Shown here: piece by piece, positions 1,585 to 53,110 of the stretch
How positions within the stretch are numbered: the stretch's first letter is position 1
Layout: each line of letters starts with the position of its first letter
DNA from: a virus
IMG/VR virus record: IMGVR_UViG_3300028854_000012
Location: 26,059 to 90,058 of that record
Length of the DNA stretch: 64,000 nucleotides
Reading direction: 5' to 3' (one strand)
The notes under the pieces: model-generated
Databases searched by the model: none
Seen by the model: the letters and a program-made list of their open reading frames with translations, nothing else
Told to the model about the DNA's origin: nothing
Made by a program: the position numbers and the translations under genes

Positions 1585-2865
1585 ATGGAAGATATTAGAG
1601 AACAAGTTTTAGAAATAGTTAATAACAATGTTACACGAATATCTGATAAACTTAAAAAAGCTAATCTTTGGGATTGGGTTGTTGCACAAGTCCCACCAGA
1701 TAAACTAGAAGTATGTAGAAACACGGCTGAAATAATATATATTGCTTTAAATCCATATAAATCTCCGTTATGTCCAAATGGACGACAAAAATATTTTTAT
1801 AATATTCAACGTGGATTTTCAGAAAGATGCAATGTAAAAACGTTTTGTCCATGTCATACAAATTTTATAGAATCTGATTCATGGAAGGAACGCTCGGTAA
1901 TAGCCAAACAAAAAAGAAAAAAATCTTTTATAAATAAATGGAAGGTAGAAAATCCAAGTCAACATCCCGATATACAACAAAAGAAAATAGAAACAAATCA
2001 AAATAAATTTGGATGTGATTGGGCACCACAATCATCAGAAGTAAAAAATAAAAATAAAAATACTTGTCAAGAAAGATATGGAGTGAATTCTGGTTTGCAA
2101 TTACCTCATGTTAGAGGAGCATTACAAGATTATCGTGTTGCACATTTAGAAGAGATTTTGGAGAAAACAAGAAACACTAATATTGAACGATGTGGTTTTC
2201 CATATTCGTCACAATCAGAGAAACAGAAAGAAAAATATATTAATACTTGTATGGAACGATATGAAGTTCCGTGGACAACACTGTTGCCATCTATGAAAGA
2301 AAAATCTATTAATACATGTATGGAACGATATAATGTTTCAAATGGTGCTCAAAGAAAATTTTCCGAAGAAACCATACAAATTTTAAATGATCCTATTATT
2401 TTAAAAGAACGTGTGGATTTGGTTGGAAAAGTTAAACTATCTATTGCCTTGAATATTAGATTTGGAACATTACAGAGATATATGTTAAAATATGGAATAG
2501 AATCTGATTATGGCAATAGCTATGAAATTGAAATTTCTGAATGGTTAAATGATAACAATATAATTTTTAAATTACATGATAGAACTCAAATAAAACCACT
2601 TGAATTAGATTTTTATATACCAGATAAAAAATTTGCCATTGAATTTCAAGGAGATTATTGGCATATGAATCCAATTATATATGAAGCAACTGATTATAAT
2701 AAAAATATAGAACTTACAGCTAAAGAAATATGGAACAGAGACAAATATAAGATTAGCCGATGTGAAGAGAAAAACATATTAGTGGCTTGTATTTGGGAAA
2801 CAGATTGGAATGAAAACAAAGAATATATAAAAGACAAAATCTTAAAAATTATAAAGGAACTATAA
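1585..2865 (+). CDS. putative homing endonuclease (T-x-x-ERYG repeats plus Vsr/PD-(D/E)XK domain)
   Basis: Repeated TC-x-ERY(G) units; C-terminal ELDFYIP..AIEFQGDYWH..IWE. Confidence 0.75.
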   Translation: MEDIREQVLEIVNNNVTRISDKLKKANLWDWVVAQVPPDKLEVCRNTAEIIYIALNPYKSPLCPNGRQKYFYNIQRGFSERCNVKTFCPCHTNFIESDSWKERSVIAKQKRKKSFINKWKVENPSQHPDIQQKKIETNQNKFGCDWAPQSSEVKNKNKNTCQERYGVNSGLQLPHVRGALQDYRVAHLEEILEKTRNTNIERCGFPYSSQSEKQKEKYINTCMERYEVPWTTLLPSMKEKSINTCMERYNVSNGAQRKFSEETIQILNDPIILKERVDLVGKVKLSIALNIRFGTLQRYMLKYGIESDYGNSYEIEISEWLNDNNIIFKLHDRTQIKPLELDFYIPDKKFAIEFQGDYWHMNPIIYEATDYNKNIELTAKEIWNRDKYKISRCEEKNILVACIWETDWNENKEYIKDKILKIIKEL

Positions 2866-6248: not shown

Positions 6249-8765
6249 ATGAGATTGCGACATTTATTTGAGGCATTAACACTACGAAAAGAGCTTGTAA
6301 TTTATTCGGGTTCTTTTAGTCCGTGGCATCTCGGTCATTCTGCGGTATATAAATATCTCAATAAAAAATTCCCTCAAGCTGATATTTTTGTTGCATCGTC
6401 TTCAAAAAAGACGGTGGATCGTTCATTTTCGTTTGATGATAAAAAATTTCTTGTCTCTCAAGCTGGAATTCCAGAAGATAAGTTTGTAGAAGTTATCGCT
6501 CCTTATAAAGCAAATGAAATCACGAAGAATTATGATCTAAATAATACTGTTTTAATTTTTGCTATCAGCAGAAAAGATAAAGATCGTTTGGCTCGTCCAA
6601 ATAAGAAAAATGGAGAAGCTCCATATTTTTTGCCATATATTAATTCTGAAGAATGTGAACCATTTTCTAAACATGGATATTTTATAGTAGTTCCTACCGT
6701 TAAGTTTTCATTATTGGGAAAATCAATAAATTCCGCAGCGCAAATCCGTGAAATGTATAAGAATTCAAATGATAGAACCCGTTTGAAAATATCTAAATCT
6801 CTGTATCCTAATTCAAATAAAATTCAAGAAATTAAAGATATTCTTGATACTATTCTTGTGTCATCAACGCTTATTGAATATTCAGGTGTTGTTTCGGATA
6901 AGGTTGATGACGATGGTTGGATTCTCCCAAATGGCGAATTTATACCCAATGGTTATCCTACTGGTTATGGTGGACATAGTTCAACGCTTTATAATTATAA
7001 AATTAAATCATATGATGAAGCCTACGATAAAGGATGGGTTCATTTTATAATTAGGGATAATAACGGGATATTAGATACCGACAATGCAGAGGTAGAAGAT
7101 AACAAAAATATTGATACTTTTGTTCGTAATAGATTAAAAGATTTCCCATATGTGACATTAACTATCTGGCCAAAAAATGACAATGAACGTAAAACAAAAA
7201 AATTTGAATGGAATGGTAGATATTTTAATCAAGTTAATAATACAAAAGTTTATGAGTCATTAGATAACTATAATACTATTACCAATTTTGGTTGGTTACT
7301 CCCCAATGGAACTTTTTTAGAAGGATGGTCACACTCTAAGATTCTTAGAAGAGAAGGCTTGAAGGATTATATTGATGCCTATGAATTGGGATGGCTTCAT
7401 TTTCAATTTGGTAATAATTATAGTAGAAGCGGTAGTATTATTTCATCTTATGGATTATTTGGAACAAACCAAAGTCTTCAAGTAGTCCAAAAAACAGTAA
7501 AAATCGGAGCAAATAGAATATCAAAAAATATTGATAATATCTATATTCAATGTTCGGAAGGTATATTTAGATATGATAGAGATTATTTTACATTTAAAAA
7601 AGTTAGAAATACTGTTCTTGAATCGATAATTACAGAAAATGAGAACATTACAAAAGATGGTTGGTTTACTCCTAACGGCAAATTTGTTGAAAATCGTTTT
7701 GGTAGTGGGCATTTTGGAACATTGCGTAACGTTGGTATAGATTCTTATGATGAAGCCTTTGATTTAGGGTGGGTTCATTTTTCTGGAACTAATAATCCAC
7801 ATGGTGTGTGTAACTTGCAAATAGGAGTTTCTTATTCAGACAATATAGAATTTATTAATAATATTGCTAAAAAACTTGAACATAATTTTCCAATTATTAA
7901 ATTAATAGAAAAATGGTATAAAGTTTTTAATAGATATGAATGGGATGGAAAAGATTTTAGATCGGTAAATCGTAATAAGTTTAATGAATCAGTTATAACA
8001 GAAAACATTAAACAAGATGGTTGGCTTCTTCCATCTGGTCAATTTATTCCTAATCCTTATGGGTCTGGACATTGGGACACTTTAAAGAAAAAAGGATTTA
8101 AATCTTATAGTGATGCATGGCAACGTGGCTGGATGCATATATCATTTTTTAATGATAGTTGTATTATATCAGCATATTCAGAATTGGAAGAAATGGAACC
8201 ATTGTTAACAAAAATTGCAAAACAAACAGAAAAGGTTTATCCAATTATACGAGTTGATTGTGGCTCTGGACGTAATTATAAGAAATATGAATGGACAGGA
8301 AAAGAATTTGTTCCTATTAAAATAAAAATGTTTAATGAATCACCAGATTTCAATTATTCGATGTTTCATAATCGAGATAAAGAATTAAAAAATGTTAAAT
8401 TTAACTGTGTTGTTACTCGTAATAGTGGTGGTGGAACTTATTTAGAAGTTATGGCAATGCTGGATTTAGAACAAATTGGTTATATACATATTTTATATGA
8501 TAAAACAGCTTTCAATTATTCAATTGGTATGGTTAGGAGAAGTGATATTGAATATGAATGGAAGGGAACCGGTCTTGGACAAATGTTATATGATAAAGCA
8601 ATTCATTATGCAAAAGAAAAAGGTTGTAAATATTTATGGTCAGATACAGAACGATCAGTAAATGCAGAAAATGCTTGGAAAAGATTATCGAAGAGATACC
8701 CAATAACTTTTGTAACAAGCAAATCAGGAATGAAATATTATCAAGTTGATTTGGACAAAATATAA
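6249..8765 (+). CDS. multidomain protein: HIGH-type nucleotidyltransferase-like domain, four repeats of an unknown domain, GNAT domain
   Basis: YSGSFSPWHLGH; four GW-x-x-P-x-G-x-F...H...Y-x-x-A-x-x-x-GW-x-H repeats; C-terminal WKGTGLGQMLY...SD..RS..A..AW. Confidence 0.75.
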   Translation: MRLRHLFEALTLRKELVIYSGSFSPWHLGHSAVYKYLNKKFPQADIFVASSSKKTVDRSFSFDDKKFLVSQAGIPEDKFVEVIAPYKANEITKNYDLNNTVLIFAISRKDKDRLARPNKKNGEAPYFLPYINSEECEPFSKHGYFIVVPTVKFSLLGKSINSAAQIREMYKNSNDRTRLKISKSLYPNSNKIQEIKDILDTILVSSTLIEYSGVVSDKVDDDGWILPNGEFIPNGYPTGYGGHSSTLYNYKIKSYDEAYDKGWVHFIIRDNNGILDTDNAEVEDNKNIDTFVRNRLKDFPYVTLTIWPKNDNERKTKKFEWNGRYFNQVNNTKVYESLDNYNTITNFGWLLPNGTFLEGWSHSKILRREGLKDYIDAYELGWLHFQFGNNYSRSGSIISSYGLFGTNQSLQVVQKTVKIGANRISKNIDNIYIQCSEGIFRYDRDYFTFKKVRNTVLESIITENENITKDGWFTPNGKFVENRFGSGHFGTLRNVGIDSYDEAFDLGWVHFSGTNNPHGVCNLQIGVSYSDNIEFINNIAKKLEHNFPIIKLIEKWYKVFNRYEWDGKDFRSVNRNKFNESVITENIKQDGWLLPSGQFIPNPYGSGHWDTLKKKGFKSYSDAWQRGWMHISFFNDSCIISAYSELEEMEPLLTKIAKQTEKVYPIIRVDCGSGRNYKKYEWTGKEFVPIKIKMFNESPDFNYSMFHNRDKELKNVKFNCVVTRNSGGGTYLEVMAMLDLEQIGYIHILYDKTAFNYSIGMVRRSDIEYEWKGTGLGQMLYDKAIHYAKEKGCKYLWSDTERSVNAENAWKRLSKRYPITFVTSKSGMKYYQVDLDKI

Positions 8766-15516: not shown

Positions 15517-16359
15517 ATGAGGCTGAACGAGTTGGCAAGAAAAAAGAAAATTGTTACTCCATATGATCCTGTTGAAGCCGCGCGTGAAAGCCTTGAATGG
15601 TATAAAGAAGATGGTATTAAAAGATGTCCAAATAATACATTACAACTTTTTGTTCCTCGAAAAATAGAACGATATGCAACAAAGAAAGAACGCGAAGAAC
15701 ATATTTTACGAGATAGAGCCAAATATGCATATGACGATAATGGTGATATGATTCCTCAATATAGAGATTGGGTCAATAATGTCCACGAATCTATAATAGA
15801 TGAAGGTGCTCCGGTGCTTGCTGGTGGAAATCCATTAATTGGTGGAAGCAAACCTTTAAGTGCGTTATTATGGACAAGCACAGCTAAAAAATTAGATAAT
15901 GGTAAGTGGACAAGTGACTGGAATAATTTTATCCAAGGTGGAAATCTCGGTAGTTCCATACCATCAAAAATTGGATACTTATATAAAGTTCTGCCAAATA
16001 CATTAGTATATGAATTAGATAGTGCTCAAGATGCATTAATTATATATAAAATTTTTAAAGATTTGGGAAGACCTAATAAAGCATTAGATGATCCAAATAA
16101 TTGGGAACGAACAAGTGAATTTTATAGGAATAGTAATGATACAGATATAAGTATTATACAAAAAGATTTTCCGTGGCCAGATTTGTCAGCTAATTTCGAT
16201 TGTATACATCATTGGGGTGGTAGAAATAGTTTTAATTATGATTCTTTTACTGGTGGATACGATGTGGAAAGTTCGTGTTTTTTCAAACCAAATCAACTTG
16301 AATTGCTTGGACAAGTTCCACTATGGACGCCCGAAGATGATAAAGAAGATGATTTTTAA
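15517..16359 (+). CDS. hypothetical protein (MRLNEL N-terminus)
   Basis: Start at ATG 15517; KP..LWTS..W...GYDVES motif. Confidence 0.65.
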   Translation: MRLNELARKKKIVTPYDPVEAARESLEWYKEDGIKRCPNNTLQLFVPRKIERYATKKEREEHILRDRAKYAYDDNGDMIPQYRDWVNNVHESIIDEGAPVLAGGNPLIGGSKPLSALLWTSTAKKLDNGKWTSDWNNFIQGGNLGSSIPSKIGYLYKVLPNTLVYELDSAQDALIIYKIFKDLGRPNKALDDPNNWERTSEFYRNSNDTDISIIQKDFPWPDLSANFDCIHHWGGRNSFNYDSFTGGYDVESSCFFKPNQLELLGQVPLWTPEDDKEDDF

Positions 16360-17135
16360 ATTTTATGTCTAATCACTCCTTGAATATAACCTAAATCTTT
16401 AAAAGATGAAAATTCTACTGGATTAATAACCTTGCAAATTCCTAATGATACGTTTTTAATATATATTTTTCCAGTGTTAGTGTGTGCTTGTTTCTTATTT
16501 GATTCTTCTTTTCTTATTCTTCCTTGAATAAATCCTTGAATTTCATATATAGGCCAGTCATTTAATTTTATAAATTTTGCTGTTTTTAAAAGCGCATGAT
16601 AAATATGAATTCTATTTTTACTTGATTCTGAAACCTTTTCTTTAGTGGAAAGCGATGATTTTTTCTTACCTAAAGAAAATCCCAAATTTATATAATATTG
16701 TAATTCTGATAGTTTAATTGGAAATTGAACTACTCCATTATTAATCCATTTTCTACCAATTTTTGATTTAGATTTTCTGGAACGAGTTATTGCGCTATTT
16801 GGAAATGGACCAAGGGGAACACTTTCGTGTTGATTATACCACATTGGATTATTGGCGGCTTTGATTTTTGTAAGAAATTTAGATTCATATAATAAACATT
16901 GTTTGGAATTTGTAAAAATTTTTCTAACTTCTACAATAAAAGAATCTTTGCCTTCTATTTTAATAATATTCTTTACAATTTTACTGGATGAAAAATATTT
17001 AGTCCATAAATCAGAAGGTAGACAGCCTATTCTTGTTTTGCTTCCAGCATATCTTTTTCCATCTGAAATATGTGTTAAAATATAAAAGAACGGTGTTCGA
17101 TCTGTTGCGGTGAATAATTCTGAATAAATAGGCAT
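16356..17135 (-). CDS. GIY-YIG-like (Seg-type) homing endonuclease
   Basis: FYILTH...RYAGSK..YFSSS..E..YN; C-terminal NUMOD-like repeats (KWINNG, GF-x-x-G). Confidence 0.75.
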   Translation of the reverse strand: MPIYSELFTATDRTPFFYILTHISDGKRYAGSKTRIGCLPSDLWTKYFSSSKIVKNIIKIEGKDSFIVEVRKIFTNSKQCLLYESKFLTKIKAANNPMWYNQHESVPLGPFPNSAITRSRKSKSKIGRKWINNGVVQFPIKLSELQYYINLGFSLGKKKSSLSTKEKVSESSKNRIHIYHALLKTAKFIKLNDWPIYEIQGFIQGRIRKEESNKKQAHTNTGKIYIKNVSLGICKVINPVEFSSFKDLGYIQGVIRHKI

Positions 17136-17200
17136 ATGCTGTTGCTCCTTAAAAGCGATAGAATTGGTGGGACAGTGAATCCGCGACCAATAGTATTTAT
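17136..17200. ncRNA. conserved two-hairpin motif at endonuclease 5' end (copy 1)
   Basis: Same architecture as 31547-31612 with compensatory stem changes. Confidence 0.6.
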
Positions 17201-17249
17201 CTTTTTGAAATAAAAATTATGTTGTTGAAAATAATGAACTTATTTTTAG

Positions 17250-17278
17250 TTGACAACAGGACAAAACTTTGATATACT
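17250..17278 (+). promoter_or_regulatory. sigma70-type early promoter
   Basis: TTGACA-17-TATACT with extended -10 TG. Confidence 0.85.
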
Positions 17279-17313
17279 AATATTGTAGTTGAGAAAAAGA
17301 AAGGAATACTAAA

Positions 17314-17658
17314 ATGTTCACTCCATTGACCCCGCGCCAAAAGACCTTGCTTGTGAATAATGTCTTGTCTGCATGTAAGGACATTAGAACGCTAAAGAAA
17401 AATGGTTACCATTTTTTATATTTGTCAAGTGGAATGATAGCCCATTATAATCGTGGAGGATTCATTGATTATTATATGGATAATGATCTTGCCACTGATA
17501 TTATCAATAATGCGCAAATGAATCAGTGGAATAATTTTAGGTTCGGTGATCGGGATTATGATTATATGATGGAAAAAAAGGATATTTATAATCGTATTCT
17601 CGCTGGTCTTGGTATAGTTGATTTGGGAGAACATATTCCAAATAAGTTTTGGTTTTAA
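17314..17658 (+). CDS. hypothetical early protein
   Basis: AAGGA RBS, directly after early promoter. Confidence 0.7.
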   Translation: MFTPLTPRQKTLLVNNVLSACKDIRTLKKNGYHFLYLSSGMIAHYNRGGFIDYYMDNDLATDIINNAQMNQWNNFRFGDRDYDYMMEKKDIYNRILAGLGIVDLGEHIPNKFWF

Positions 17659-17661
17659 CAT

Positions 17662-17925
17662 AATTTCAATTGGGAGGTCGGCTTAAAGGTAGCCATCCTT
17701 TAAAGAGTGAGTCGTGATACAGGGATTGCGGAAGTTATATCGGAATGATATGCAAGGGCAATCTTGGGTGCAGTTGTTTAGACCGATTGCCAAGATTAAC
17801 TGCATTACAACCAAACACTATTGGCACGTGGATAATAGTTGATACGTTTTTTGCTACGCAAACTATTGTTGGTCTGATAAGGCAAGATATGGACTCTTTG
17901 GTGTAGAAACACACCAATTGAAATT
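17662..17925 (+). ncRNA. structured RNA resembling the 23S rRNA L11-binding domain (H43/H44)
   Basis: 12-bp closing stem AATTTCAATTGG/CCAATTGAAATT; GGAGGTCGGCTTAAAGGTAGCCATCCTTTAAAGAGTG...GTGTAGAAACACAC aligns to the rRNA consensus. Confidence 0.7.
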
Positions 17926-17929
17926 TTAT

Positions 17930-18178
17930 CAATCTTAGAAAAGAAAATACAAATGAATTTTATGTAAATTAATCCTTGACAAACAACAAATTATATAGTA
18001 TCATAATAATGTGATGATAATCAAATCACATATGTAACAAGAAAATATAGGGATGGAATGTCCCGAATTTACGCTTGTGGAGATACCACTACTGGGCAAC
18101 GTTGATAAAAAATCAATCTTGTAGGCATGTGTCGATGAAACAAGAAGCCATAATTGCTTTAGCAATTGGGTGATTCAC
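17930..18178 (+). mobile_element. non-autonomous IS200/IS605 derivative (left end, promoter, omegaRNA scaffold, right end)
   Basis: Follows TTTAT; left end AGAAAAGAAAATAC..ATGAATTTT matches 34581; 3' 130 nt match the tnpB 3' end and finish GGGTGATTCAC. Confidence 0.8.
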
Positions 18179-18218
18179 AAAGGAATAAAGAATGTTGGTA
18201 GTTTGTAATGTTAAAAGT

Positions 18219-18356
18219 TTGTGTGGGCAGCGTGGATGAACACGTTTTGGGTCTTAAAGGTTTAACTCTTTTGAGGTAAGACTCGCCATAAATACGGAAG
18301 GAACGCCGTTGAGGAGTAACGATAAAATTGTTGGTATCCAATCCAACTCCACACAA
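18219..18356 (+). ncRNA. putative structured ncRNA
   Basis: Closing stem TTGTGTGG/CCACACAA; CGTG-GATGAA-CACG hairpin shared with 58061 element. Confidence 0.5.
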
Positions 18357-18488
18357 TTTATATAGATACCATATATTAGAAAAGGCCACTCTTACTACTG
18401 GTTTAACCAGAGCGGAGTGGCCATATTATTTTATGCTTGACATTTGAAAATGATTACTATATCATCGTAAATGAGGAGAAATATAACA

Positions 18489-18746
18489 ATGGCAATAACT
18501 ACATTAGGACCAAATGAAATTAATAAATTACAAGATATTATTTTTGATGGTGTGCGCAATCTTGAAGAGTGCGAGGCACTACAAACCGGTATGGCAGATA
18601 CAATTAAAAGTGTGGCAGAGGAATTGCAAATTCCAGCAAGTCTATTAAAAAAGGCAATAAAAACGGCATTCAAAGGTAATTATGCTGAATTAGAAGCTGA
18701 GTTAAATGACCTTGATGCTTTGCTTCAAGCTGCGGGTAAAAAGTAA
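18489..18746 (+). CDS. small helical protein, possibly T4 DsbA-like dsDNA-binding
   Basis: GAGGAG RBS; D-x-IK-x-VAEEL-x-I-x-x-x-LLKKAIKTA pattern. Confidence 0.55.
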   Translation: MAITTLGPNEINKLQDIIFDGVRNLEECEALQTGMADTIKSVAEELQIPASLLKKAIKTAFKGNYAELEAELNDLDALLQAAGKK

Positions 18747-18759
18747 ATAAATTAAAAAT

Positions 18760-18834
18760 GCGGGGTTAGCTCAATGGTCGAGCGCCAGAAACCAATTCTG
18801 GAGGTTGCTATTTCGATATTAGCACCCCGCTCCA
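18760..18834 (+). tRNA. atypical tRNA: Gly-type body with CCA at positions 34-36
   Basis: GCGGGGT/ACCCCGC acceptor, U73-CCA, anticodon loop AACCAAT, T53:T61 mismatch. Confidence 0.6.
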
Positions 18835-18843
18835 ATAACAAGT

Positions 18844-18920
18844 TTATGTGAATGACTAAAGCAGGAAAAATATGCCTTCCGCCGTAAAATCGGGCTGGAA
18901 TTAACCAGAAGTTCACATAA
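18844..18920 (+). ncRNA. putative small structured RNA
   Basis: Closing stem TTATGTGAA/TTCACATAA, internal CTGG-AATTAA-CCAG hairpin. Confidence 0.35.
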
Positions 18921-18936
18921 TTTAAATTATAATAGT

Positions 18937-19076
18937 TTGTGCAGAGTGTGTTTTGAACGGATAACAAGTTGGACTCCATGCGCGTATACATTGGTAAAGA
19001 CGCTGATAGGGCCAACCGGCTGTTGCGAACGGGGGATAACCAAGAAGACCCTAAAGTCTGTGACTGCTCTGCACAA
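18937..19076 (+). ncRNA. putative structured ncRNA
   Basis: GC-richer island closed by TTGTGCAGAG/CTCTGCACAA. Confidence 0.45.
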
Positions 19077-19105
19077 TTTATATATTAAAGTAAAACAGGA
19101 ATATA

Positions 19106-21760
19106 ATGAGTTATATTAGTGCAAAAATAAATAAAAAATCAGAACGTATAGAAGTTGTAGAAAGAATAAATGACAAACGCATTTATAACAGCTATCCAAT
19201 TGACTATTCATTTTATGTAGATGATCCAAATGGTCAATATAAAACAATATATAATACTCCTGTAACAAAAATTACACCAAGATCATCATCGGAATTTCAT
19301 AAAGAGTTAGCAAGACTTGGTAATAAAAAAGTTTGGGAAAGTGATTTAAATCTGGTTTATAAATGTCTTTCTCAAAATTATCGTCACAAAAATGCTCCAG
19401 AATTACATATTACCTTGTTTGATATAGAAGTGGATTTTGATTCTGTGCGCGGTTATGCTCCAATTGATGATCCGTTTGCTGCTATTACCGCAGTAACAAT
19501 GCAACACCAATGGAATAAAGAATTAATTACTTTAGCTCTTAAACCCAAAACATATACTATAGAAAAAGCAAATGAAATTGCTGCAAAATTTGAAAATACG
19601 ATAATTTTTGAAAATGAAGTTGATATGCTTTCTGCCATTCTTGATTTATTAGAAGATACTGATATTATTAGTGGATGGAATAGTTCTGGTTTTGATATTC
19701 CTTATCTTATCAATCGAATCACAAGAATTATGAGTAAAGATGATACAAGTAGACTATGCCTATGGAATGAAAAACCAAAAGAAAAAACAGTAGAAAAATA
19801 TGGAAAAGAAATTTCCACTTATGAACTAGTAGGTAGAGTTCATTTGGATTTAATGGAAGTTTATATTAAGTTCACTTATGAAGAACGCCACAGCTATAGT
19901 TTAAATGCTATTGCAGAACATGAGTTGGGTCAAAGTAAAACACCATATACCGGTAGTCTTGATAAATTATATAATGAAGATTTTGAAAAGTTTATTGAAT
20001 ATAACAGGCAAGATGTTATACTTTTATCTCTTCTTGAAGATAAATTGAAGTTTATTGATTTATTAAATGGAATGGCCCATGATACAACAACTCTTCTTTC
20101 AACATGCATGGGAACAGTTGCAGTTATTGACCAAGCTATAGTCAATAGAATTCATGATAGGGGTCAGATTGCTCCAAATAGAAAAAATAATTCATATGAA
20201 GGTAATGAGTCTGTCGCAGGAGCATATGTTGCAACGCCAAAAAGCGGAGCACATGAATGGGTTGGAGTAATTGATATTAATTCACTATACCCAAGCACTA
20301 TTAGAGCATTGAATATGGGATTGGAAACAATTGTTGGGCAAATTAGACCTACCCTAACAGATGATTATATTTCAGAACAATTCAAAAAGCAAAATATGAC
20401 ATTTGCTCATGCTTGGGAAAATCAATTTGGGTCTCATGAGTATCAAGCGGTTATGGCTCGTAAACAAGGTATTGATTTAATTATTGATTGGGAAGAAACA
20501 GGAAAAAATGATACAGTTACAGCAGATCAATGTTATGATTTAATTTTTAATAGTGGGCAACCTTGGATGCTTAGTGGTAACGGAACAATTTTTACATATG
20601 CACATAACGCTATTATTCCGGGATTATTACTGGATTGGTATACAGATCGTAAAGAATTTCAAAAGAAACAACGAGAAGCCACAGATTTAAAAATTGAGTC
20701 TTTTTTTAATCGCCGTCAGCATATAGAAAAAATAAAACTTAATAGTTTATATGGTGCATTATTAAGTCCAGCTTCTCGTTTCTTTGATAAAAGATTAGGA
20801 CAAAGCGTAACTTTATCGGGTCGTATTATTTGCAAACATATTAATTCTTTTGCGAATGAATGTATTACTGGAGAATATAATATCGAAGGCGCAGCAATTT
20901 GTGCTGCTGATACTGATAGCACCCAATTTAGTGCATGGACAACAATTAAACCAATGGTTGATCGTAAAGAATTGGAATGGAATAAAGAGGCAGCGGTTCA
21001 ATTATATACTGCTATTGGAGAAAAAGTTAACGAGTCTTTTCCAACTCTTATGGAAAAAATGTTTAATTGTCCACAAGAATTTGGATCGCTTATTAAGGCA
21101 AGTTGTGAAAGTGTTGGTTATCGCGGATTATATATTACTAAAAAAAGATATGCAATTTTAAATTATTGGAAAGATGGTAAGTATTTAAAAGAGTCAAAAT
21201 TAAAAGCAATGGGATTGGACCTTAGACGCAGTGATACACCAGTAGTATGTCAGAAATTTTTAAAAACTATTCTTATGGAATTTTTAACAACTGGCTCAGA
21301 GCAAAATATTATCAAAATGATAAATGATTTTAAAATTAAATTTAAAGCATTACCGCCATCCGACAGAGGAACACCAAAACGAGTAAATAATTTAACTAAT
21401 TATATGGACCTTATTCAAAAAGGAAAAGGTAATAGAGTTCCGGGGCATGTTCGTGCCGCTATAAATTGGAATATACTTCGTGAAATAAATAATGATAAGA
21501 TTCATACTAAAATTGTTGATGGAATGAAATGTGTCGTTTGTCCATTAAAGAATAATATTAATCAAATGACAAGTATTGCATATCCAACAGATGAAATAAG
21601 TTTACCTAATTGGTTCACTGTATTACCCTTTGATGAAGAATCAATGATTAAAAGCGTAGTAGAAAAAAAGATTGAGAATCTTTTTGGTAAATTACCAAAT
21701 TGGAAAACAATAGAAAATGCAACTAAGAAAATTAATACTTATGAAGATTTTTTTGAATAG
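19106..21760 (+). CDS. gp43: family B DNA polymerase (T4 gp43-like)
   Basis: Exo DIEV, GWNSSGFD, YNRQD; pol DINSLYPS, KLNSLYG, DTDS, KKRY. Confidence 0.97.
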   Translation: MSYISAKINKKSERIEVVERINDKRIYNSYPIDYSFYVDDPNGQYKTIYNTPVTKITPRSSSEFHKELARLGNKKVWESDLNLVYKCLSQNYRHKNAPELHITLFDIEVDFDSVRGYAPIDDPFAAITAVTMQHQWNKELITLALKPKTYTIEKANEIAAKFENTIIFENEVDMLSAILDLLEDTDIISGWNSSGFDIPYLINRITRIMSKDDTSRLCLWNEKPKEKTVEKYGKEISTYELVGRVHLDLMEVYIKFTYEERHSYSLNAIAEHELGQSKTPYTGSLDKLYNEDFEKFIEYNRQDVILLSLLEDKLKFIDLLNGMAHDTTTLLSTCMGTVAVIDQAIVNRIHDRGQIAPNRKNNSYEGNESVAGAYVATPKSGAHEWVGVIDINSLYPSTIRALNMGLETIVGQIRPTLTDDYISEQFKKQNMTFAHAWENQFGSHEYQAVMARKQGIDLIIDWEETGKNDTVTADQCYDLIFNSGQPWMLSGNGTIFTYAHNAIIPGLLLDWYTDRKEFQKKQREATDLKIESFFNRRQHIEKIKLNSLYGALLSPASRFFDKRLGQSVTLSGRIICKHINSFANECITGEYNIEGAAICAADTDSTQFSAWTTIKPMVDRKELEWNKEAAVQLYTAIGEKVNESFPTLMEKMFNCPQEFGSLIKASCESVGYRGLYITKKRYAILNYWKDGKYLKESKLKAMGLDLRRSDTPVVCQKFLKTILMEFLTTGSEQNIIKMINDFKIKFKALPPSDRGTPKRVNNLTNYMDLIQKGKGNRVPGHVRAAINWNILREINNDKIHTKIVDGMKCVVCPLKNNINQMTSIAYPTDEISLPNWFTVLPFDEESMIKSVVEKKIENLFGKLPNWKTIENATKKINTYEDFFE

Positions 21761-26787: not shown

Positions 26788-26816
26788 TTGACAAACAAAC
26801 CAAATTCTGATATACT
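26788..26816 (+). promoter_or_regulatory. sigma70-type early promoter
   Basis: TTGACA-17-TATACT; ATG 6 nt downstream. Confidence 0.85.
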
Positions 26817-34551: not shown

Positions 34552-34580
34552 TTTATTGATTTACTCCTGTTGATATTTAT

Positions 34581-35906
34581 CTTTTCAGAAAAGAAAATAC
34601 GGATGAATTTTCTGTTCCCAAACCAAAATAAACATTTGGCATTTATATAAAAACAAAATAAAATGTATAAATAGATATATGCACAAAGCATTTAAATATC
34701 GGGTATATCCAACCAAAGAACAAGATAAAATCTTGAACGAATGGCAAGGACAACTGCGATTTATTTGGAATCAATTTCTTGATGGAAATATTAAGAGATA
34801 TGAATTAGAAAAGAAATTCAATTTTAAATTTGAAATGGCAAATGCTTTACCGATATTAAAACAAGAACACAAATGGATTTCTGCTCCAAGTCAAAGTTTA
34901 CAACAAATCGCTCTACAAATGGATGGAGCACTTAGAAATTGTTACAAGCGAAAACTTGGTTTCCAAAATTCAAAAAGAAAAACGGAAGGCAACAAGGAAT
35001 TAAAATACCTCAACAATATGATCAAATAAAAACAGGTTCTAAATTTATCAAAATACCCAAATTAGGTGAAGTGAAATGGATTAGACACAGAGAACTACAA
35101 GGAAAACTTAAATCAGTTACAATAACCAAAGACGTAGATCAATGGTATGTTTCGTGTCTCTGCGATATAGATTTTGTTCCATCGCCCAAAGAAGTAAAAT
35201 CCATTGAAAATGATATAACAGGAATTGATTTGGGTATTACTAACTTCATAGTTGACAGCAACGGAGTTGTTGTGGACTCACCAAAATATCTCAAGAAGTC
35301 AGAGAAGAAATTAAAAAGATATGCAAGGCAATACTCTAATAAAAAGAAAGGAAGTAATAATCAAAACAAAGCACGAATAGTATTAGCAAAACAACATAGA
35401 AAAGTAAGGTTTCAAAGAAAGGATTTTCTCCACAAATTGAGTTCTCAGATAGCCAATGAGAATGTGATTGTTATATGTGAAGACCTAGCAGTTAAAAATA
35501 TGAGTAAAAATAGATGCTTGTCAAAAGCAATAAGTGATCAGGGATGGAGTCAGTTCATTACATATTTGACCTATAAACTGGATTGGTGCGGAGGGGAACT
35601 AATTAAAATACCGAGATTTGCTCCTTCAAGTCAGATATGTTCGTCTTGTGGCAATAAACAGAAAATGGATTTGTCTCTGAGAACTTATCTCTGTCCTTCT
35701 TGTAATTTGGTCATAGATAGAGATTACAATGCATCTCTTAATATAAAAGCATTTGGTCTTAAAATTTTAAATGAAACAAATAGGGCAGGAATTGCCCGAA
35801 TATACGCTTGTGGAGATACCTCCAATGGGATATTTGGTATACCGAATATTAGTTGTGTCTCGATGAAACAAGAAGCCAAAGTTGCTTTAGCAACTGGGTG
35901 ATTCAC
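34581..35906 (+). mobile_element. IS200/IS605-family tnpB-only element
   Basis: Starts after TTTAT, ends GGGTGATTCAC; both ends shared with 17930-18178; no tnpA. Confidence 0.85.
34679..35901 (+). pseudogene. tnpB: TnpB RNA-guided nuclease, one-base frameshift near 34960
   Basis: KAFKYRVYP HTH, GIDLG, CEDL, CSSCG/CPSC, DRDYNA; GFPKFK split by one missing T. Confidence 0.9.
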
Positions 35907-43249: not shown

Positions 43250-44965
43250 TTGAATAAATATCAAGAAAAGATAACAGAATTATATTTAAAACAGCCCAAA
43301 CACGCCATAAAAATGATTTTTTCTAATACTGACTTAAAAAAATGGGTTGAAAATAATTGTGATCCTGCTAGTCCAAATAAATTAACAATGGTTTATACTG
43401 CTTATCATAACATTTTGCTTGTTTGTCCATGTGGGTCGGGTAAGTTAAGAAAATGTAATCGTTTTAATAACGGGCTTGCGTTTTGTGGAACGCGCTCGTG
43501 TTCTATAAATGCTATTATAATTAAAGAAAAAACAAAACAAACCAATCTTGAAAGATATGGTGTTGTTGATCCAATGTCTAACTTTGAAGTTCAAGAAAAA
43601 GGAAGGAAAACAAATCTTGAAAGATATGGAACAGAATTTACATTTCAAAATAAAGATGTTAAAGAAAAAATAAAAAATACTAATGTTGAAAGATATGGAT
43701 TTGAAAATGTTTCACAAAATAGTAATATCCAAAGAAAAAGAAAATTATCAAATTTAGAAAAATATGGATTTAACCATCCGTCTTCAACTATTGCTTTTAG
43801 GGAAAGAGTAAAAAACACTAATCTTGAAAGATATGGTGTGGATAATCCTCAAAAAATAAATGAAGTTAAAGAAAAAACAAAACAAACTAATCTTGAAAGA
43901 TATGGATTTGCATATATTAATCAAAGACATTATTCTAAATTAGCAAAAGAGATATTATTTGATATTGAAAAATTTAAAAGTTTTCTCGAACAACATGGTG
44001 TAAAAAATATGGCTTTATTATTAGAAACCAGCGAATCAAATATATATGTAAAACATCTAAATTTTGGTTTAAATATTATTAGTGCCTCTTCGTCATCTTA
44101 TGAAAGCGAAATAGCTACTTGGCTTTTAAGTCATAATATTGAATTTATTCAAAATTCAAAAAAAATTATTTCTCCATTGGAGTTAGATTTTTATTTACCA
44201 AATCAAAAAGTAGCTATAGAATTTAATGGTTTATATTGGCATAGTGAGATTGAATGTAAAAATAAAAATTATCATTTTGATAAAATGCAAAGATGTAATA
44301 AATTAGGTATTCGGTTAATTCATATATTTGAAGACGAATGGCGAAATAAACGAGAAGTTTGTTTGGATGTTTTATCTCGTATTTTAAATATTAAGATGAT
44401 CCATGTGGCTGCAAGAAAATGTCAAATTAAAGAACTTACTAATAAAGATTCACGTGAGTTTTTAGAAAATAATCACCTTCAAGGATATGCCTCTGCCACC
44501 ATTAATCTTGGTATGTTTTATGAAAATAATTTAATTCAGCTTTTAACCTTTAGAAAACCGAGATATAATAAAAATATTCAATGGGAAAATGTGCGGTGTT
44601 GTAATAAAATAGGATATCAAATCATCGGTGGTGTGGGAAAATTATGGACATATTTTCTTAGAAAATATAATCCAGAATCGGTGGTTTCTTATTGTGATTT
44701 GCGCTGGTTTACTGGAGAAACATATAAAAAATTATTATTTCATTTGAATCATATTACAAAAATTCAATATTATTATACAAATTATAAAAATAGATGGCAT
44801 CGATCTTTATTTACCAAAAAGAAATGTATTAAAAAAGCAATATCATTAAATAATATAACCGAAAATCTATTAAACCAAATGACAGAAAATCAAATTACAA
44901 AAGAAATTTTGCATTTAGATAGAATATGGGATTGTGGACAACAAACATGGATTTGGAAACAATAG
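43250..44965 (+). CDS. putative homing endonuclease (TNLERYG repeats, Vsr-like domain, C-terminal extra domain)
   Basis: Six N-x-E-(R/K)-YG repeats; ELDFY..IEFNGLYWHSE..FEDEW; IWDCG end. Confidence 0.8.
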   Translation: MNKYQEKITELYLKQPKHAIKMIFSNTDLKKWVENNCDPASPNKLTMVYTAYHNILLVCPCGSGKLRKCNRFNNGLAFCGTRSCSINAIIIKEKTKQTNLERYGVVDPMSNFEVQEKGRKTNLERYGTEFTFQNKDVKEKIKNTNVERYGFENVSQNSNIQRKRKLSNLEKYGFNHPSSTIAFRERVKNTNLERYGVDNPQKINEVKEKTKQTNLERYGFAYINQRHYSKLAKEILFDIEKFKSFLEQHGVKNMALLLETSESNIYVKHLNFGLNIISASSSSYESEIATWLLSHNIEFIQNSKKIISPLELDFYLPNQKVAIEFNGLYWHSEIECKNKNYHFDKMQRCNKLGIRLIHIFEDEWRNKREVCLDVLSRILNIKMIHVAARKCQIKELTNKDSREFLENNHLQGYASATINLGMFYENNLIQLLTFRKPRYNKNIQWENVRCCNKIGYQIIGGVGKLWTYFLRKYNPESVVSYCDLRWFTGETYKKLLFHLNHITKIQYYYTNYKNRWHRSLFTKKKCIKKAISLNNITENLLNQMTENQITKEILHLDRIWDCGQQTWIWKQ

Positions 44966-51080: not shown

Positions 51081-53110
51081 CTTATCGGTCAAGCATCACA
51101 GTTGCAAGTTAATTTATTTAATAATTTATTTGACTTGACTTCAAATGTAACTTGGTCTATAGTATAAATAGTAATGAAAGGATAATTATGAAAGATCAAA
51201 TATTGAAGTTATTAAAAGAAAAACCAAAACATGCAATAAGAATGATTGTATCCGATTTAGAATTATGGTCATGGATCGAAAATCATTGTGATCCACGCAG
51301 TAATTCAAATGCTATAAAAGTATACACTGCGATATCAGACGAAAAAGTTTTATGCCCCTGTGGTTCTGGAAAATTGCGCAAGTTGAATTCCATTAAAAAT
51401 GGATTCTTTTTTTGTGGAAGAGCAAAAGATTGTTCTGCTTGTAGGAATGCAGTTAGCACTAATTGTATTAAATCTGCAAAACTATGGGATAAAGAAGTAG
51501 CACAAGAAAAAAGAAACAATACCAATATGAAAAAATATGGTATGGAAAATGTTGGACAACTTCCAAAAGCCATAGAAACTCGTAAAAAACTTTATGACAA
51601 CAAAGAATGGGTTCAGGCCATTGTTACAGTGATTCAAAATACCTGTCAAGAAAAATATGGTGTTAAAAATCCGTTACAAGTAAAATCATTTTTAGAAAAA
51701 CAAATGATCACCATGCAATCGAAATATAGAGTTGAACACCCAATACAAAATAAAGAAATAAAAGAAAAAACACGAAAAACAAACCAAAAAAAATACGGTG
51801 TTGATTTTCCAGTATCATCGCACATTGTTCAAGACAAAATAAAAAATACATGTATTAAAAAATATGGTGTTGATTATGCATTGGAATCTCCAGAAATTAG
51901 AAAGAAGATTGAAGAAACAATAAAAGAAAAATATGGAGAAAAATATACATCAATTTTACAAGTTCCAGAAATGCGTGATATAATACTGGTAACATTTCGT
52001 GAAAAATATGGAGTTAATTCTCCGTCTCAGATAAATTTTCCAAAAGAAGTAGTAAACATTCTATTTGATAAAGAAAAATTTTCTGAACTGTTGAGAAATA
52101 CTTCTGTAAGACAAGTATGCGAAAAATTAAATATTTCTCGGTCGCTGGTTAAAAATTATCACGATAAATATGAACTTGATATTATTCCAAAGAAAAGTAA
52201 AAGTGGATATGAAGACGAGATCGAAAAATGGTTACAAGAAAATAATATACCAGCTAAAAAGAATGATAGGAAGATTTGTAAGCCGTTGGAATTAGATTTC
52301 TATATACCAGAATATAATTTAGCAATCGAATTTAATGGTTTGTATTGGCATTCAGAAAAATCTGGAGGGAAAGGTAGAAATTACCATAAAACTAAATTTT
52401 TTAAATGTCAAGAACAGAACATTCAACTTCTAACAATATTTGAAGATGAATGGGTAGAAAAATCAGAAATTATTAAACACCATATTTTACACCTCTGTCA
52501 TAAAACAGAAAAAACTATCGGAGCACGAAAGATTAATATTCGGCCAATTGATTCTGGAAAATGTTCAGTATTTTTAGAAAAACATCATATTCAAGGATCG
52601 ACCAGTGGAAGTTTTTTATTGGGAGGATTTGTTGATTCTAAGTTAGTTGCAGTGATTACCTTATTAAAAACAAAAAATGGAACATTTGATATCAATCGTT
52701 ATGCAACAGATCAAGAAGCATCATATGCTGGTTTGTTTTCAAAATTTTTGAAATATGTAGAGAGAAATTTTCCATTTATTAAGAAAGTAACCACATTTGC
52801 TGATTGCAGATGGAGTATGGGTGATGTTTATATAAAATCTGGATTTGATAAAATGTATTATTTGCGACCAGATTATAGCTATACTGATTATAATATTCGT
52901 CATCACAAGTTCAATTATAGAAAAAGAAAATTGAAAATGTTTTTTGAAAATGCTGATAGTATGACAGAAAAAATGATGACTGATATATTGGAGTTGGATC
53001 GTATTTGGGATTGTGGGAAGATAAAGTTTGAAAAGACGTTACGACCATAAGTAAAGGGTGATTCACCTTATCTTTCAAGCATTGCTGTTGCAAGTTAATT
53101 TATTTAATAA
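51081..53110 (+). repeat. imperfect 44-bp direct repeat (51081-51124 and 53067-53110) flanking an endonuclease gene
   Basis: CTTATCggTCAAGCATcacaGTTGCAAGTTAATTTATTTAATAA vs CTTATCttTCAAGCATtgctGTTGCAAGTTAATTTATTTAATAA. Confidence 0.8.
51188..53050 (+). CDS. putative homing endonuclease, paralog of 43250
   Basis: PKHAI..CPCGSGKLRK shared; K-YG repeats; IEFNGLYWHSE; IWDCG; start MKDQ after TATAAATA and AAGGA. Confidence 0.8.
   Translation: MKDQILKLLKEKPKHAIRMIVSDLELWSWIENHCDPRSNSNAIKVYTAISDEKVLCPCGSGKLRKLNSIKNGFFFCGRAKDCSACRNAVSTNCIKSAKLWDKEVAQEKRNNTNMKKYGMENVGQLPKAIETRKKLYDNKEWVQAIVTVIQNTCQEKYGVKNPLQVKSFLEKQMITMQSKYRVEHPIQNKEIKEKTRKTNQKKYGVDFPVSSHIVQDKIKNTCIKKYGVDYALESPEIRKKIEETIKEKYGEKYTSILQVPEMRDIILVTFREKYGVNSPSQINFPKEVVNILFDKEKFSELLRNTSVRQVCEKLNISRSLVKNYHDKYELDIIPKKSKSGYEDEIEKWLQENNIPAKKNDRKICKPLELDFYIPEYNLAIEFNGLYWHSEKSGGKGRNYHKTKFFKCQEQNIQLLTIFEDEWVEKSEIIKHHILHLCHKTEKTIGARKINIRPIDSGKCSVFLEKHHIQGSTSGSFLLGGFVDSKLVAVITLLKTKNGTFDINRYATDQEASYAGLFSKFLKYVERNFPFIKKVTTFADCRWSMGDVYIKSGFDKMYYLRPDYSYTDYNIRHHKFNYRKRKLKMFFENADSMTEKMMTDILELDRIWDCGKIKFEKTLRP

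What the first reader, a model, noticed from the sequence alone, without database searches (positions are those of the whole stretch)
17930..18200. Orphan omegaRNA cassette with its own promoter; TAM inferable as TTTAT
Seen: 249-bp element with the same left end and 3' scaffold as the tnpB element at 34581-35906, no ORF, an internal TTGACA-17-TATCAT promoter (about 17976-18004) just before the scaffold, and compensatory changes in the terminal hairpin (AATTGC/GCAATT vs AGTTGC/GCAACT). Both copies follow TTTAT. Known: TnpB uses the flank after the right end as guide and its TAM equals the insertion motif. Inference: a trans-acting guide RNA (guide starting AAAGGAATAAAGAATG) for the phage TnpB, aimed at the empty allele in rival phages or another target.
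Basis: partly seen in the sequence, partly recalled or inferred. Interest (0 to 1): 0.72.

Follow-up and report, generated by a model that had tools for sequence, protein, structure and literature searches.

The report
Gene-less TnpB guide-RNA element in phage
A 249-base leftover of a jumping gene in a very large peat-soil phage has lost its nuclease gene but keeps a promoter and an intact guide-RNA scaffold that turns up in RNA libraries; such guide-only mini-elements are already known, so this is a well-documented new example and not a new kind of system.

Summary
Window 17930-18178 is a 249-bp, ORF-free derivative of an IS200/IS605-family tnpB element. It has a 36-nt left-end remnant, a TTGACA-17-TATCAT site and a complete TnpB omegaRNA scaffold ending in TTCAC. 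It lies directly after TTTAT, like the resident tnpB element (34581-35906) and an intact relative (L008). A related phage (L040) has an empty site with TTTAT at the tnpB position. TTTAT (TAM) and TTCAC (right-end motif) are the pair shown experimentally for Geobacillus ISGst2 TnpB2 (PMC10055086).

Contigs from three metatranscriptomes match scaffold, guide and downstream RNA without mismatch, bridging both boundaries.

The trans-guide function is unproven. The only TnpB gene in the 90-kb record is frameshifted, and the frameshift appears in two alleles. No TnpA is present, and the element's left-end hairpin is degraded. No empty allele or second target of the guide was found.

Protein-less elements (PATEs) that encode omegaRNAs are already described. 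They are common here: 29 of 69 assessable genomic copies of this scaffold and 8 of 28 viral copies lack tnpB. This scan has already noted such cassettes in at least 24 other genomes.

Verdict: new member of a known kind, modest interest.

The parts
17925..17929 (+). TTTAT, transposon-adjacent motif (TAM) directly 5' of the element
   Evidence: Read. The same pentamer precedes the resident element and the L008 copy. It stands at the empty site of L040. TTTAT is the tested TAM of ISGst2 TnpB2 (PMC10055086).
17930..18178 (+). 249-bp protein-less IS200/IS605-family derivative (PATE-like orphan omegaRNA element)
17930..17966 (+). Left-end remnant, homologous to the resident left end at 34581-34616. 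Its subterminal hairpin is degraded.
   Evidence: 90% identity over 29 nt, E 2.0e-5; alignment. In DNA folds the resident and L008 left ends form the CAGAAAA/TTTTCTG stem, while the orphan does not (z -0.04).
17976..18004 (+). Sigma-70-type promoter-like site TTGACA-17-TATCAT. I infer a start near 18011.
   Evidence: Scores 11 of 12. It shares TTGACAAAC with promoter-like sites at 26788 and 27149. The left ends of the RNA-library contigs lie at 18027, 18040 and 18061.
18046..18178 (+). omegaRNA scaffold. Parts: 5' hairpin 18050-18064, core ACGCTTGTGGAGA 18071-18083, variable hairpins, TGAAACAAGAA 18136-18146, terminal hairpin 18147-18170, and right-end motif TTCAC 18174-18178.
   Evidence: Alignment with 35 other copies. 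Consensus fold with covariation. The terminal hairpin is present in 32 of 36 by my reading. Model R1 scores it 96.6 bits, though it was in the training set.
18179..18217 (+). Guide region, the flank after the right end. The first 16 nt are AAAGGAATAAAGAATG. It can run at most to the 5' end of the next small RNA at 18218.
   Evidence: RNA-library contigs bridge 18178|18179 and 18217|18218.
18218..18360 (+). Downstream small RNA of about 142 nt, present on the same RNA contigs as the omegaRNA. A hairpin plus T-run at 18384-18434 follows (seen by eye).
   Evidence: Contigs and the head-to-tail joint; fold. The hairpin was read and was not called by the terminator scan.
34581..35906 (+). Resident tnpB element. 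It follows TTTAT (34576-34580), and TATAAATA lies at 34666-34673 before the ATG at 34679. The tnpB gene is split by a 1-nt loss in the T-run at 34960-34962. Its omegaRNA spans about 35772-35906 and ends in TTCAC.

Best explanation
Window 17930-18178 is a non-autonomous, protein-less derivative (PATE-like) of an IS200/IS605-family tnpB transposon of the TTTAT-TAM / TTCAC-TEM clade. It inserted 3' of a TTTAT at the end of a small-RNA gene, inside the stable-RNA and tRNA cluster in front of the DNA polymerase gene of a jumbo phage from peat.

The element keeps a short left-end remnant, a sigma-70-type promoter and a complete TnpB omegaRNA scaffold. It appears to be transcribed together with the next small RNA.

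The resulting RNA carries the right flank (AAAGGAATAAAGAATG...) as its guide. By the established logic of these transposons, it would direct a TnpB supplied in trans to cut the element-free allele TTTAT|AAAGGAAT.... That allele would arise after excision, or would be met in a co-infecting phage that lacks the insertion. Recombination repair would then copy the element back (homing). The element's own copy is protected because TTCAC, not TTTAT, precedes the guide.

Shown: identity, anatomy, TAM, presence in RNA libraries. Inferred: the start site, use by TnpB, and cleavage. Current activity is doubtful because the only visible tnpB is frameshifted.
For: - **Homology of both ends to the resident element:**
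- **TAM:** TTTAT lies before 3 of 3 insertions, and the L040 empty site carries TTTAT.
- **Matching characterised system:** ISGst2 TnpB2 has TAM TTTAT and TEM TTCAC, which differ at positions 3 and 5 (PMC10055086, passages).
- **Scaffold architecture across 36 copies:** the 5' hairpin has both sides changed in 3 to 15 sequences per pair. Pairs 65/120 and 66/119 have both sides changed in 17 and 20 sequences. The terminal hairpin is present in 32 of 36 copies with different stem sequences (my reading).
- **Orphan against resident:** they differ by compensated changes in both hairpins.
- **RNA libraries:** contigs of three runs from three studies match 18061-18247, 18040-18247 and 18027-18247 with 0 other letters. 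They bridge the scaffold/guide boundary and the boundary to the next RNA. Head-to-tail joints of the neighbouring RNAs occur in RNA runs and not in DNA run X14, so these libraries do hold RNA-derived molecules of this locus.
- **Promoter:** 11 of 12. Such sites are enriched in the window, 12 against 5.07, sd 2.4.
- **Resident TnpB:** apart from one frameshift it is 90-91% identical to an intact 407-aa homologue over 316 aa with no stop. It keeps the GIDLG, CEDL and DRD motifs that are invariant in alignment A2.
- **Other phages:** 8 of 28 assessable viral copies of this scaffold are orphans, and 4 of 4 orphan-bearing records searched also encode a TnpB. In one 94%-complete phage the orphan is 82% identical over 132 nt to the omegaRNA of its own tnpB, and both are preceded by a TTGACA...TATAAT site.
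- **Literature:** PATEs that encode omegaRNAs needing TnpB in trans are stated in PMC10055086 (Discussion passage).
Against: - The only TnpB homologue in the 90-kb record is frameshifted. The truncated 116-aa product occurs as two alleles, 115 of 116 residues identical, in two other assemblies. It is therefore not a one-off assembly error.
- No Y1 TnpA is present in the record.
- The orphan's left-end hairpin no longer forms, so the element may be immobile.
- The orphan scaffold is only 78% identical to the resident one, with a different central region. Compatibility with the resident TnpB is assumed.
- The scaffold's own fold energy is unremarkable against shuffles (z -1.13).
- No empty allele was found: 0 hits in IMG/VR. 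All 49 metagenome hits are unrelated, with 0 of 49 continuing with the next 4 bases of the flank.
- Contigs cannot show strand, ends or level. The tool itself warns that DNA can be present in RNA libraries.
- The transcript may exist only to express the downstream small RNA.
- The record is about 25% of the genome by CheckV's estimate. Both 'no TnpA' and 'one TnpB' are therefore weak statements.
Confidence: 0.6

Rival explanations
1. Inert relic with a borrowed job. The element is a dead mini-transposon whose omegaRNA is no longer used by any TnpB. Its promoter and transcript persist only because they now drive, or lead into, the downstream 142-nt stable RNA (18218-18360) of the phage's small-RNA cluster.
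For: The RNA-library contigs that cover the scaffold run on into the downstream RNA in all three runs. The tnpB gene is frameshifted in two alleles. The left-end hairpin is degraded, and no TnpA is present. The insertion lies inside a cluster of small RNAs and a tRNA. Tnp-less copies of this scaffold are common: 29 of 69 assessable in genomes and 8 of 28 in viral contigs.
Against: The scaffold keeps both hairpins through compensated changes and keeps every core motif, whereas a relic would be free to decay. The remaining 75% of the genome, or the host, may supply TnpB. Other orphan-bearing phages all encode TnpB (4 of 4).
Confidence: 0.3
2. Exapted guide with a target other than its own empty site. 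The RNA would steer a TnpB or a nuclease-dead TnpB-like repressor to a host or rival-phage gene, as TldR guide RNAs do.
For: Phages are known to use TnpB-derived TldR proteins with natural guides to repress host fliC (PMC10705468, abstract and passages). The cassette has a host-type promoter.
Against: The guide is simply the flank next to an intact right end, and the left end is still present, which is the transposon configuration. No second match to the guide exceeds the control in the 90-kb record: 3 forward and 1 reverse hits at up to 3 mismatches, against 4 and 2 for the reversed pattern, and only the locus itself is exact. The 2-mismatch site at 19509 is not preceded by TTTAT. No second TnpB-like gene is present. 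The 49 metagenome hits are unrelated ribosome-binding-site-like contexts, 34 of them one human-gut locus.
Confidence: 0.05
3. Chance similarity or assembly artefact.
For: None found.
Against: E 2.4e-23 and 2.0e-5 to the two ends of the resident element. The stretch is held by 14 DNA runs with 0.97-1.00 of its sampled words. DNA contigs of run X14 span it.
Confidence: 0.01

Closest known systems
PATE-like protein-less IS200/IS605 elements that encode omegaRNAs (Geobacillus stearothermophilus; Meers et al. 2023 preprint, PMC10055086; passages read)
   Same: No protein gene. It has left-end and right-end homology to tnpB elements and an omegaRNA at the right end that needs TnpB in trans. TAM is TTTAT and the right-end motif is TTCAC, as in ISGst2.
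   Different: It sits in a lytic-type jumbo phage and not in a bacterial chromosome. It carries a strong sigma-70-type promoter between the left end and the scaffold. Its left-end hairpin is degraded, and its only visible partner tnpB is frameshifted.
ISDra2 TnpB-omegaRNA (PDB 8BF8, 8EXA, 8H1J)
   Same: The phage-clade TnpB (L008 copy) matches ISDra2 TnpB at E 8e-63 over residues 2-361. The omegaRNA overlaps the 3' end of tnpB and uses the right flank as guide.
   Different: I recall the ISDra2 TAM as TTGAT, whereas here it is TTTAT. No omegaRNA sequence comparison with ISDra2 was made.
Orphan omegaRNA copies in other phages
   Same: The scaffold occurs without an adjacent tnpB while a TnpB gene lies elsewhere in the same record. 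L325 has a TTGACA-17-TATAAT site directly upstream.
   Different: These are other lineages and insertion sites. In L325 the promoter is also present inside the parental tnpB element, whereas the resident element here shows only a 9-of-12 site before its omegaRNA.
Homing of free-standing endonuclease genes in T-even phages, and 'transposon non-restorative homing' (review PMC13565253; passages read)
   Same: The proposed outcome is the same. A nuclease cuts the allele of a co-infecting phage that lacks the element, and repair copies the element in.
   Different: Recognition here would be by RNA guide plus TAM. It has not been shown for this locus.
TldR, nuclease-dead TnpB-like repressors of prophages (PMC10705468; abstract and passages)
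   Same: A phage-borne TnpB-family guide RNA.
   Different: TldR loci have a nuclease-dead protein next to the guide, no transposon ends, and a guide matching a host promoter. None of these holds here.

Membership tests
IS200/IS605-family non-autonomous (PATE-like) element | Both ends homologous to those of a tnpB- or tnpA-bearing element | tested here: met
   Right end: 78% over 132 nt, E 2.4e-23. Left end: 90% over 29 nt, E 2.0e-5. Alignment.
IS200/IS605-family non-autonomous (PATE-like) element | No protein-coding gene inside | tested here: met
   The longest ORFs inside are 54 aa (-) and 32 aa (+), and the latter is the tnpB C-terminal remnant.
IS200/IS605-family non-autonomous (PATE-like) element | Insertion 3' of a fixed pentamer (TAM) without target-site duplication | tested here: met
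   TTTAT precedes 3 of 3 insertions. The flanks show no duplication. An empty site with TTTAT was found for the tnpB element in L040. No empty site was found for the orphan itself.
IS200/IS605-family non-autonomous (PATE-like) element | Subterminal hairpins at both ends for the Y1 transposase | tested here: inconclusive
   The right-end hairpin is present. The left-end stem CAGAAAA/TTTTCTG of the resident and L008 copies is disrupted in the orphan, and no hairpin forms in the DNA fold (z -0.04).
IS200/IS605-family non-autonomous (PATE-like) element | A TnpA able to move it | not testable with these tools
   No PF01797 match in the 90-kb record. However, the record is about 25% of the genome and the host is unknown.
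TnpB omegaRNA | Conserved scaffold at the right end, ending at the transposon boundary and followed by the guide | tested here: met
   The two core motifs are invariant by construction because they were the search pattern. The hairpins were not part of the pattern, and they covary.
TnpB omegaRNA | Is made as RNA | tested here: inconclusive
   Contigs of three RNA libraries cover it with 0 other letters. Strand, ends and level cannot be read from contigs, and carried-over DNA is not formally excluded.
TnpB omegaRNA | A cognate, intact TnpB is available | tested here: not met
   There is one TnpB homologue in the record. It is frameshifted at 34960-34962, and the frameshift recurs in two alleles. 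The unseen 75% of the genome and the host were not testable.
TnpB omegaRNA | Binds TnpB and directs TAM-dependent cleavage | not testable with these tools
   This needs an experiment.
TldR-type domesticated guide | Nuclease-dead TnpB-like gene beside the guide, no transposon ends, guide matching a promoter | tested here: not met
   No second TnpB-like gene. The ends are present. The guide has no extra match.
Any Rfam family | Match at or near the gathering score | tested here: not met
   Only 6 tRNAs were found in the window at gathering score. Nothing scored better than E 1.6 in 17200-18800.

The most novel reading that the evidence does not exclude
The phage has domesticated the mini-element as an RNA-guided gene drive. 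An early, host-type promoter makes the guide as part of the stable-RNA operon. A TnpB, from the unseen part of this jumbo genome or from ribosomal slippage on the T-TTC at the frameshift, uses it to cut co-infecting relatives that lack the insertion. This would force inheritance of the small-RNA cluster and the adjacent DNA polymerase region. It would be an RNA-guided counterpart of SegB-type marker exclusion at the T4 tRNA cluster.
Probability: 0.12. Interest if true: 0.65.

Novelty: new member of a known kind. Interest (0 to 1): 0.3.

Why it matters
If the guide is used, it would be a natural case of a virus carrying a spare RNA guide for a transposon nuclease. It would add to the open question of what TnpB does in phages, which is raised for example for cyanophage A-1(L) in 10.64898/2026.02.14.705889.

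This copy adds two practical things. First, public metatranscriptomes hold the RNA, so its start, end and strand could be read from raw reads without culturing anything. Second, its TAM/TEM pair equals that of an experimentally characterised TnpB, so an interference assay can be designed directly.

As a class, however, guide-only IS605 derivatives are described in the literature and are frequent, so the finding does not change the picture.

Tried and rejected
- **Known phages:** blastn of the orphan locus and of the tnpB element against 50,697 phage records gave no match.
- **Rfam:** no family matched.
- **Fold call:** I re-sent it with shorter stretches.
- translated L008 in the wrong frame. 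One search corrected it.
- **24-nt right-end pattern:** it found L008 and one chance coding match, L007.
- **17-mer pattern:** it found 18 loci. Seven look like omegaRNAs, and 11 are unrelated coding sequence.
- **Relatives via the 91-aa neighbour protein:** the 14 loci are too distant (45-53% identity). They show no DNA match to 17930-18200, so they say nothing about an empty site for the orphan.
- **The look-up of encoding contigs:** The contigs of the closest TnpB relatives (P0003, P0005, P0012) therefore could not be fetched, and a parental element of the orphan could not be sought there.
- **The search for related loci with TnpB alignment A2:** These loci were not used further.
- **Empty site or target search:** 0 hits in IMG/VR. 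There were 49 hits in metagenome contigs, all unrelated. Thirty-four of them are one human-gut locus and 15 are others. The best flank agreement was 14 of 35 upstream and 11 of 30 downstream, and 0 of 49 continue with TTGG. My first downstream comparison was mis-registered by 2 nt, and one search corrected it.
- **Weak match in record G001:** a match to the left-end region (E 0.007) proved to be coding sequence.
- **Left-end pattern scan of IMG/VR:** None of the 112 loci held had an omegaRNA core downstream or the TTTAT context.
- **RNA-run cover:** none of the listed pieces of RNA runs X15-X17 covers 17929-18026 (left end and promoter), while DNA run X14 does. The scaffold contigs start at three different places, so I do not count this as support for the start site. 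The upstream RNA contigs stop at 17923, 17924 and 17928 without a loose end, which is only a weak hint of a 3' end there.
- **Contig depths:** 17-40 for the scaffold contigs and 4-11 for the ORF contigs. These cannot rank expression and are not used as evidence.
- **Not done:** no structure prediction, complex prediction or Atlas search was run, because the proteins involved belong to well-known families. Supplementary files of the papers were not opened; those of PMC10055086 may hold the ISGst PATE sequences.

Full report
**Setting.** The window is bases 26059-90058 of a 90,058-bp IMG/VR virus record that CheckV rates as 25% complete. Its family-B DNA polymerase (19106-21760) is closest, at 40-45% identity, to those of jumbo phages of 350-490 kb: Sinorhizobium phage Phosso, Agrobacterium phage Atu_ph07 and Pectobacterium phage CBB. 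The stretch 17000-19500 is held by 14 DNA runs labelled peat metagenome with 0.97-1.00 of its sampled words, and by 6 metatranscriptome runs with 0.20-0.45.

**Observation.** TTTAT lies at 17925-17929. A 249-bp element follows (17930-18178), ending in GGGTGATTCAC, and the flank then reads AAAGGAATAAAGAATG. The tnpB element at 34581-35906 has the same layout.

BLAST of the orphan against the whole record matched the resident right end (78% over 132 nt, E 2.4e-23) and the resident left end (90% over 29 nt, E 2.0e-5) and nothing else of note. A covariance model built from 36 scaffold copies found only these two in the record, at 105.3 and 96.6 bits, and both were in its training set.

There is no ORF above 54 aa inside the element. 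TTGACA-17-TATCAT at 17976-18004 scores 11 of 12. The window holds 12 sites of that quality against 5.07, sd 2.4, in Markov simulations. The + strand sites with a perfect TTGACA and a 17-nt spacer include 17250, 18437, 26788, 28742 and 29181.

The hairpin differences between the orphan and the resident copy are compensated in the terminal hairpin (A-T against G-C) and at two pairs of the 5' hairpin. The central part of the scaffold is different sequence in the two copies. The orphan therefore descends from a diverged sibling element, not from the resident one.

**The partner gene.** The resident ORFs carry HTH_OrfB_IS605 (5e-15), OrfB_IS605 (3.5e-23) and Cas12f1-like_TNB (9.4e-22). An intact 407-aa relative (P0001, locus L008) matches ISDra2 TnpB at E 8e-63.

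Against L008, the window copy has lost one T of a TTTT run at 34960-34962, which splits the gene into frames of 140 and 321 codons. The rest is 90-91% identical to the intact protein over 316 residues, without a stop. The truncated 116-aa product exists as two alleles that differ at one residue, in an ENA contig and a Logan contig. The frameshift is therefore real in the population.

I note, as inference only, that a -1 slip of tRNA-Phe from TTC to the preceding TTT would give exactly the conserved GFPKFKKK. No other TnpB-like gene and no Y1 TnpA is present in the 90 kb.

**TAM and boundaries.** A third insertion, the L008 copy in another IMG/VR contig, also follows TTTAT. A relative whose neighbouring protein is 72% identical (L040) has no element between the same two genes. 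It carries TTTAT at the corresponding place.

The Meers et al. preprint (PMC10055086; passages read) reports three relevant points for ISGst2 of Geobacillus stearothermophilus:
- a TAM of 5'-TTTAT-3', from ChIP-seq and interference assays;
- a wild-type right-end motif of TTCAC;
- that the two motifs differ at positions 3 and 5, which keeps the site of omegaRNA biogenesis from being recognised.

The phage elements show exactly this pair. This fixes the right boundary at 18178 and the guide start at 18179. L008 ends in TTCAT, so the last base is uncertain by one there.

**Scaffold.** The two core motifs, separated by 30-60 nt, occur in 117 stretches of bacterial and archaeal genomes and in 38 stretches (39 matches) of IMG/VR. 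I took 34 non-redundant copies out of 55 kept at under 85% mutual identity. I left out 21 to keep the alignment readable, choosing by eye and not by result. With the two window copies this gave 36 sequences.

In the RNAalifold consensus of these 36, the 5' hairpin has both sides changed in 15, 12, 3, 10 and 11 sequences at its five pairs, with 7-9 sequences broken or gapped. Two pairs of the central helix have both sides changed in 17 and 20 sequences. The CTTGT/ACAAG helix is invariant, but only because it lies in the search pattern.

MAFFT misaligned the terminal hairpin, so I folded the 36 nt after GAAACAAGAA in each sequence. By my reading of the dot-brackets, 32 of 36 form a hairpin there with different stems, the orphan included (10 pairs, loop UUUA).

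The left end is another matter. The CAGAAAA/TTTTCTG stem of the resident and L008 copies is broken at two of seven pairs in the orphan, and the DNA fold shows no such hairpin.

**RNA evidence.** Contigs of RNA runs X15, X16 and X17 (three studies) and of DNA run X14 were laid on 16300-19300. In each RNA run one contig matches the scaffold, the guide and the beginning of the next RNA with no other letter: 18061-18247, 18040-18247 and 18027-18247. These contigs bridge 18178|18179 and 18217|18218.

They end at 18247, where a second contig (18218 to 18357-18360) overlaps by 30 letters. That second contig carries 30-31 extra leading letters. For X16 the tool lists a joint from 18360 back to 18218.

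Similar head-to-tail joints are listed for 17928 back to 17653 (X15) and for 19077 back to 18936 (X16 and X17). None is listed for DNA run X14. The locus therefore yields RNA-derived molecules, and the omegaRNA sits on a transcript shared with the downstream 142-nt RNA.

Contigs cannot give strand, ends or level. The uncovered stretch 17929-18026 is not counted as evidence.

**How common is this?** Of the 117 genomic copies, 40 have a TnpB of at least 150 aligned residues within 1.5 kb upstream and 29 do not. Of those 29, 19 have no hit at all and 10 have fragments of 42-140 residues. The other 48 have too little upstream sequence to tell. Of the 39 viral matches, 20 have tnpB, 8 do not and 11 cannot be told.

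All 4 orphan-bearing viral records that could be searched encode TnpB elsewhere; a fifth was not held. Three jumbo-phage contigs carry both a tnpB-linked copy and an orphan copy (L013 with L319, L023 with L314, L015 with L300; L300 is unassessable).

In the 94%-complete record of L325, the orphan is 82% identical over 132 nt to the omegaRNA behind one of its two tnpB genes. Both copies are preceded by TTGACA-17/18-TATAAT.

The preprint's Discussion already says that PATEs often encode omegaRNAs that must be acted on in trans. A 2026 review lists 'transposon non-restorative homing' into co-infecting phages or plasmids (PMC13565253). This scan's notebook holds 27 notes with these words in at least 24 genomes, and the eight shown were judged PATE-like by their follow-up agents. 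The scan has thus found this before on other DNA.

**Target.** The guide has no second site in the record above the control, and the 2-mismatch site in the polymerase gene lacks TTTAT. IMG/VR has no TTTAT+guide. The 49 metagenome hits are unrelated contexts that look like ribosome-binding sites followed by ATG. The only target that the sequence itself defines is the element-free joint.

**Verdict.** Identity as a PATE-like orphan omegaRNA element is about 0.9 likely, and transcription is about 0.6-0.7 likely. Present use by a TnpB is about 0.3 likely, because the visible nuclease gene is broken and the left end is decayed. I class it as a new member of a known kind, of modest interest.

Noticed in passing
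window 17653-17928: An RNA unit of about 264-276 nt lies directly upstream of the element. RNA-library contigs cover it in three runs, and in X15 a 306-letter contig joins 17928 back to 17653, which suggests a circular or head-to-tail molecule. Positions 17673-17709 also match, with 2-3 other letters, contigs that run on into unrelated sequence in both RNA and DNA runs. I recognise that sequence from memory as 23S rRNA next to the L11 / GTPase-associated region.
   Followed up: partly
window 18218-18360 and 18936-19077: Two RNAs of about 142 nt both begin UUUGUG and are closed by 9-11-bp terminal stems (z -2.2 and -3.0). Both give head-to-tail joints in RNA contigs. The contig lengths equal unit length plus 30, and the first unit gives 140, 142 or 144 nt in three runs. 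These could be circular RNAs, or template switching on abundant small RNAs. I know of no family for them, and Rfam gave no match.
   Followed up: partly
window 18760-18834: ARAGORN calls a tRNA-Trp (CCA) here. The Rfam gathering-score scan did not list it. The polymerase-proximal cluster is therefore a mixed tRNA and small-RNA region.
   Followed up: no
window 34666-34673; L008 3290-3297: TATAAATA stands 5-6 nt before the tnpB start codon in both phage copies. I recall this as the T4-type late-promoter box. The transposon's nuclease gene may be wired to phage late transcription, while the orphan guide has an early, host-type promoter.
   Followed up: no
window 34958-34966: The frameshift site reads GG TTT CC. 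A -1 slip of tRNA-Phe from TTC onto TTT would restore the conserved GFPKFKKK reading. This is pure inference, and no stimulatory structure was looked for.
   Followed up: no
L328 about 1730-1880 and L325 about 8380-8520 (one 107-kb, 94%-complete IMG/VR phage): The omegaRNA behind tnpB has its own TTGACA...TATAAT site overlapping the end of the tnpB ORF. A tnpB-less copy elsewhere in the same phage keeps both promoter and scaffold (82% over 132 nt).
   Followed up: partly
L013/L319, L023/L314, L015/L300 (IMG/VR contigs of 313-448 kb): Jumbo-phage contigs carry a tnpB-linked omegaRNA and, elsewhere, a tnpB-less copy placed right after the stop codon of an unrelated ORF. The two copies differ in both hairpin regions.
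   Followed up: partly
window 16356-17135 (-): A SegE-like GIY-YIG endonuclease gene (Pfam PF19835, E 1.4e-7) lies 800 bp upstream of the small-RNA cluster. A protein-based homing endonuclease and an RNA-guide relic therefore sit on either side of the same RNA genes.
   Followed up: no
window 2030-2340, 43509-43925, 51489-51950: Arrays of a 69-nt (23-codon) repeat occur in three genes that also share a conserved C-terminal block at 2596, 44174 and 52283 (families D1 and D6). This looks like a paralogous family of repeat-bearing nuclease-like genes.
   Followed up: no
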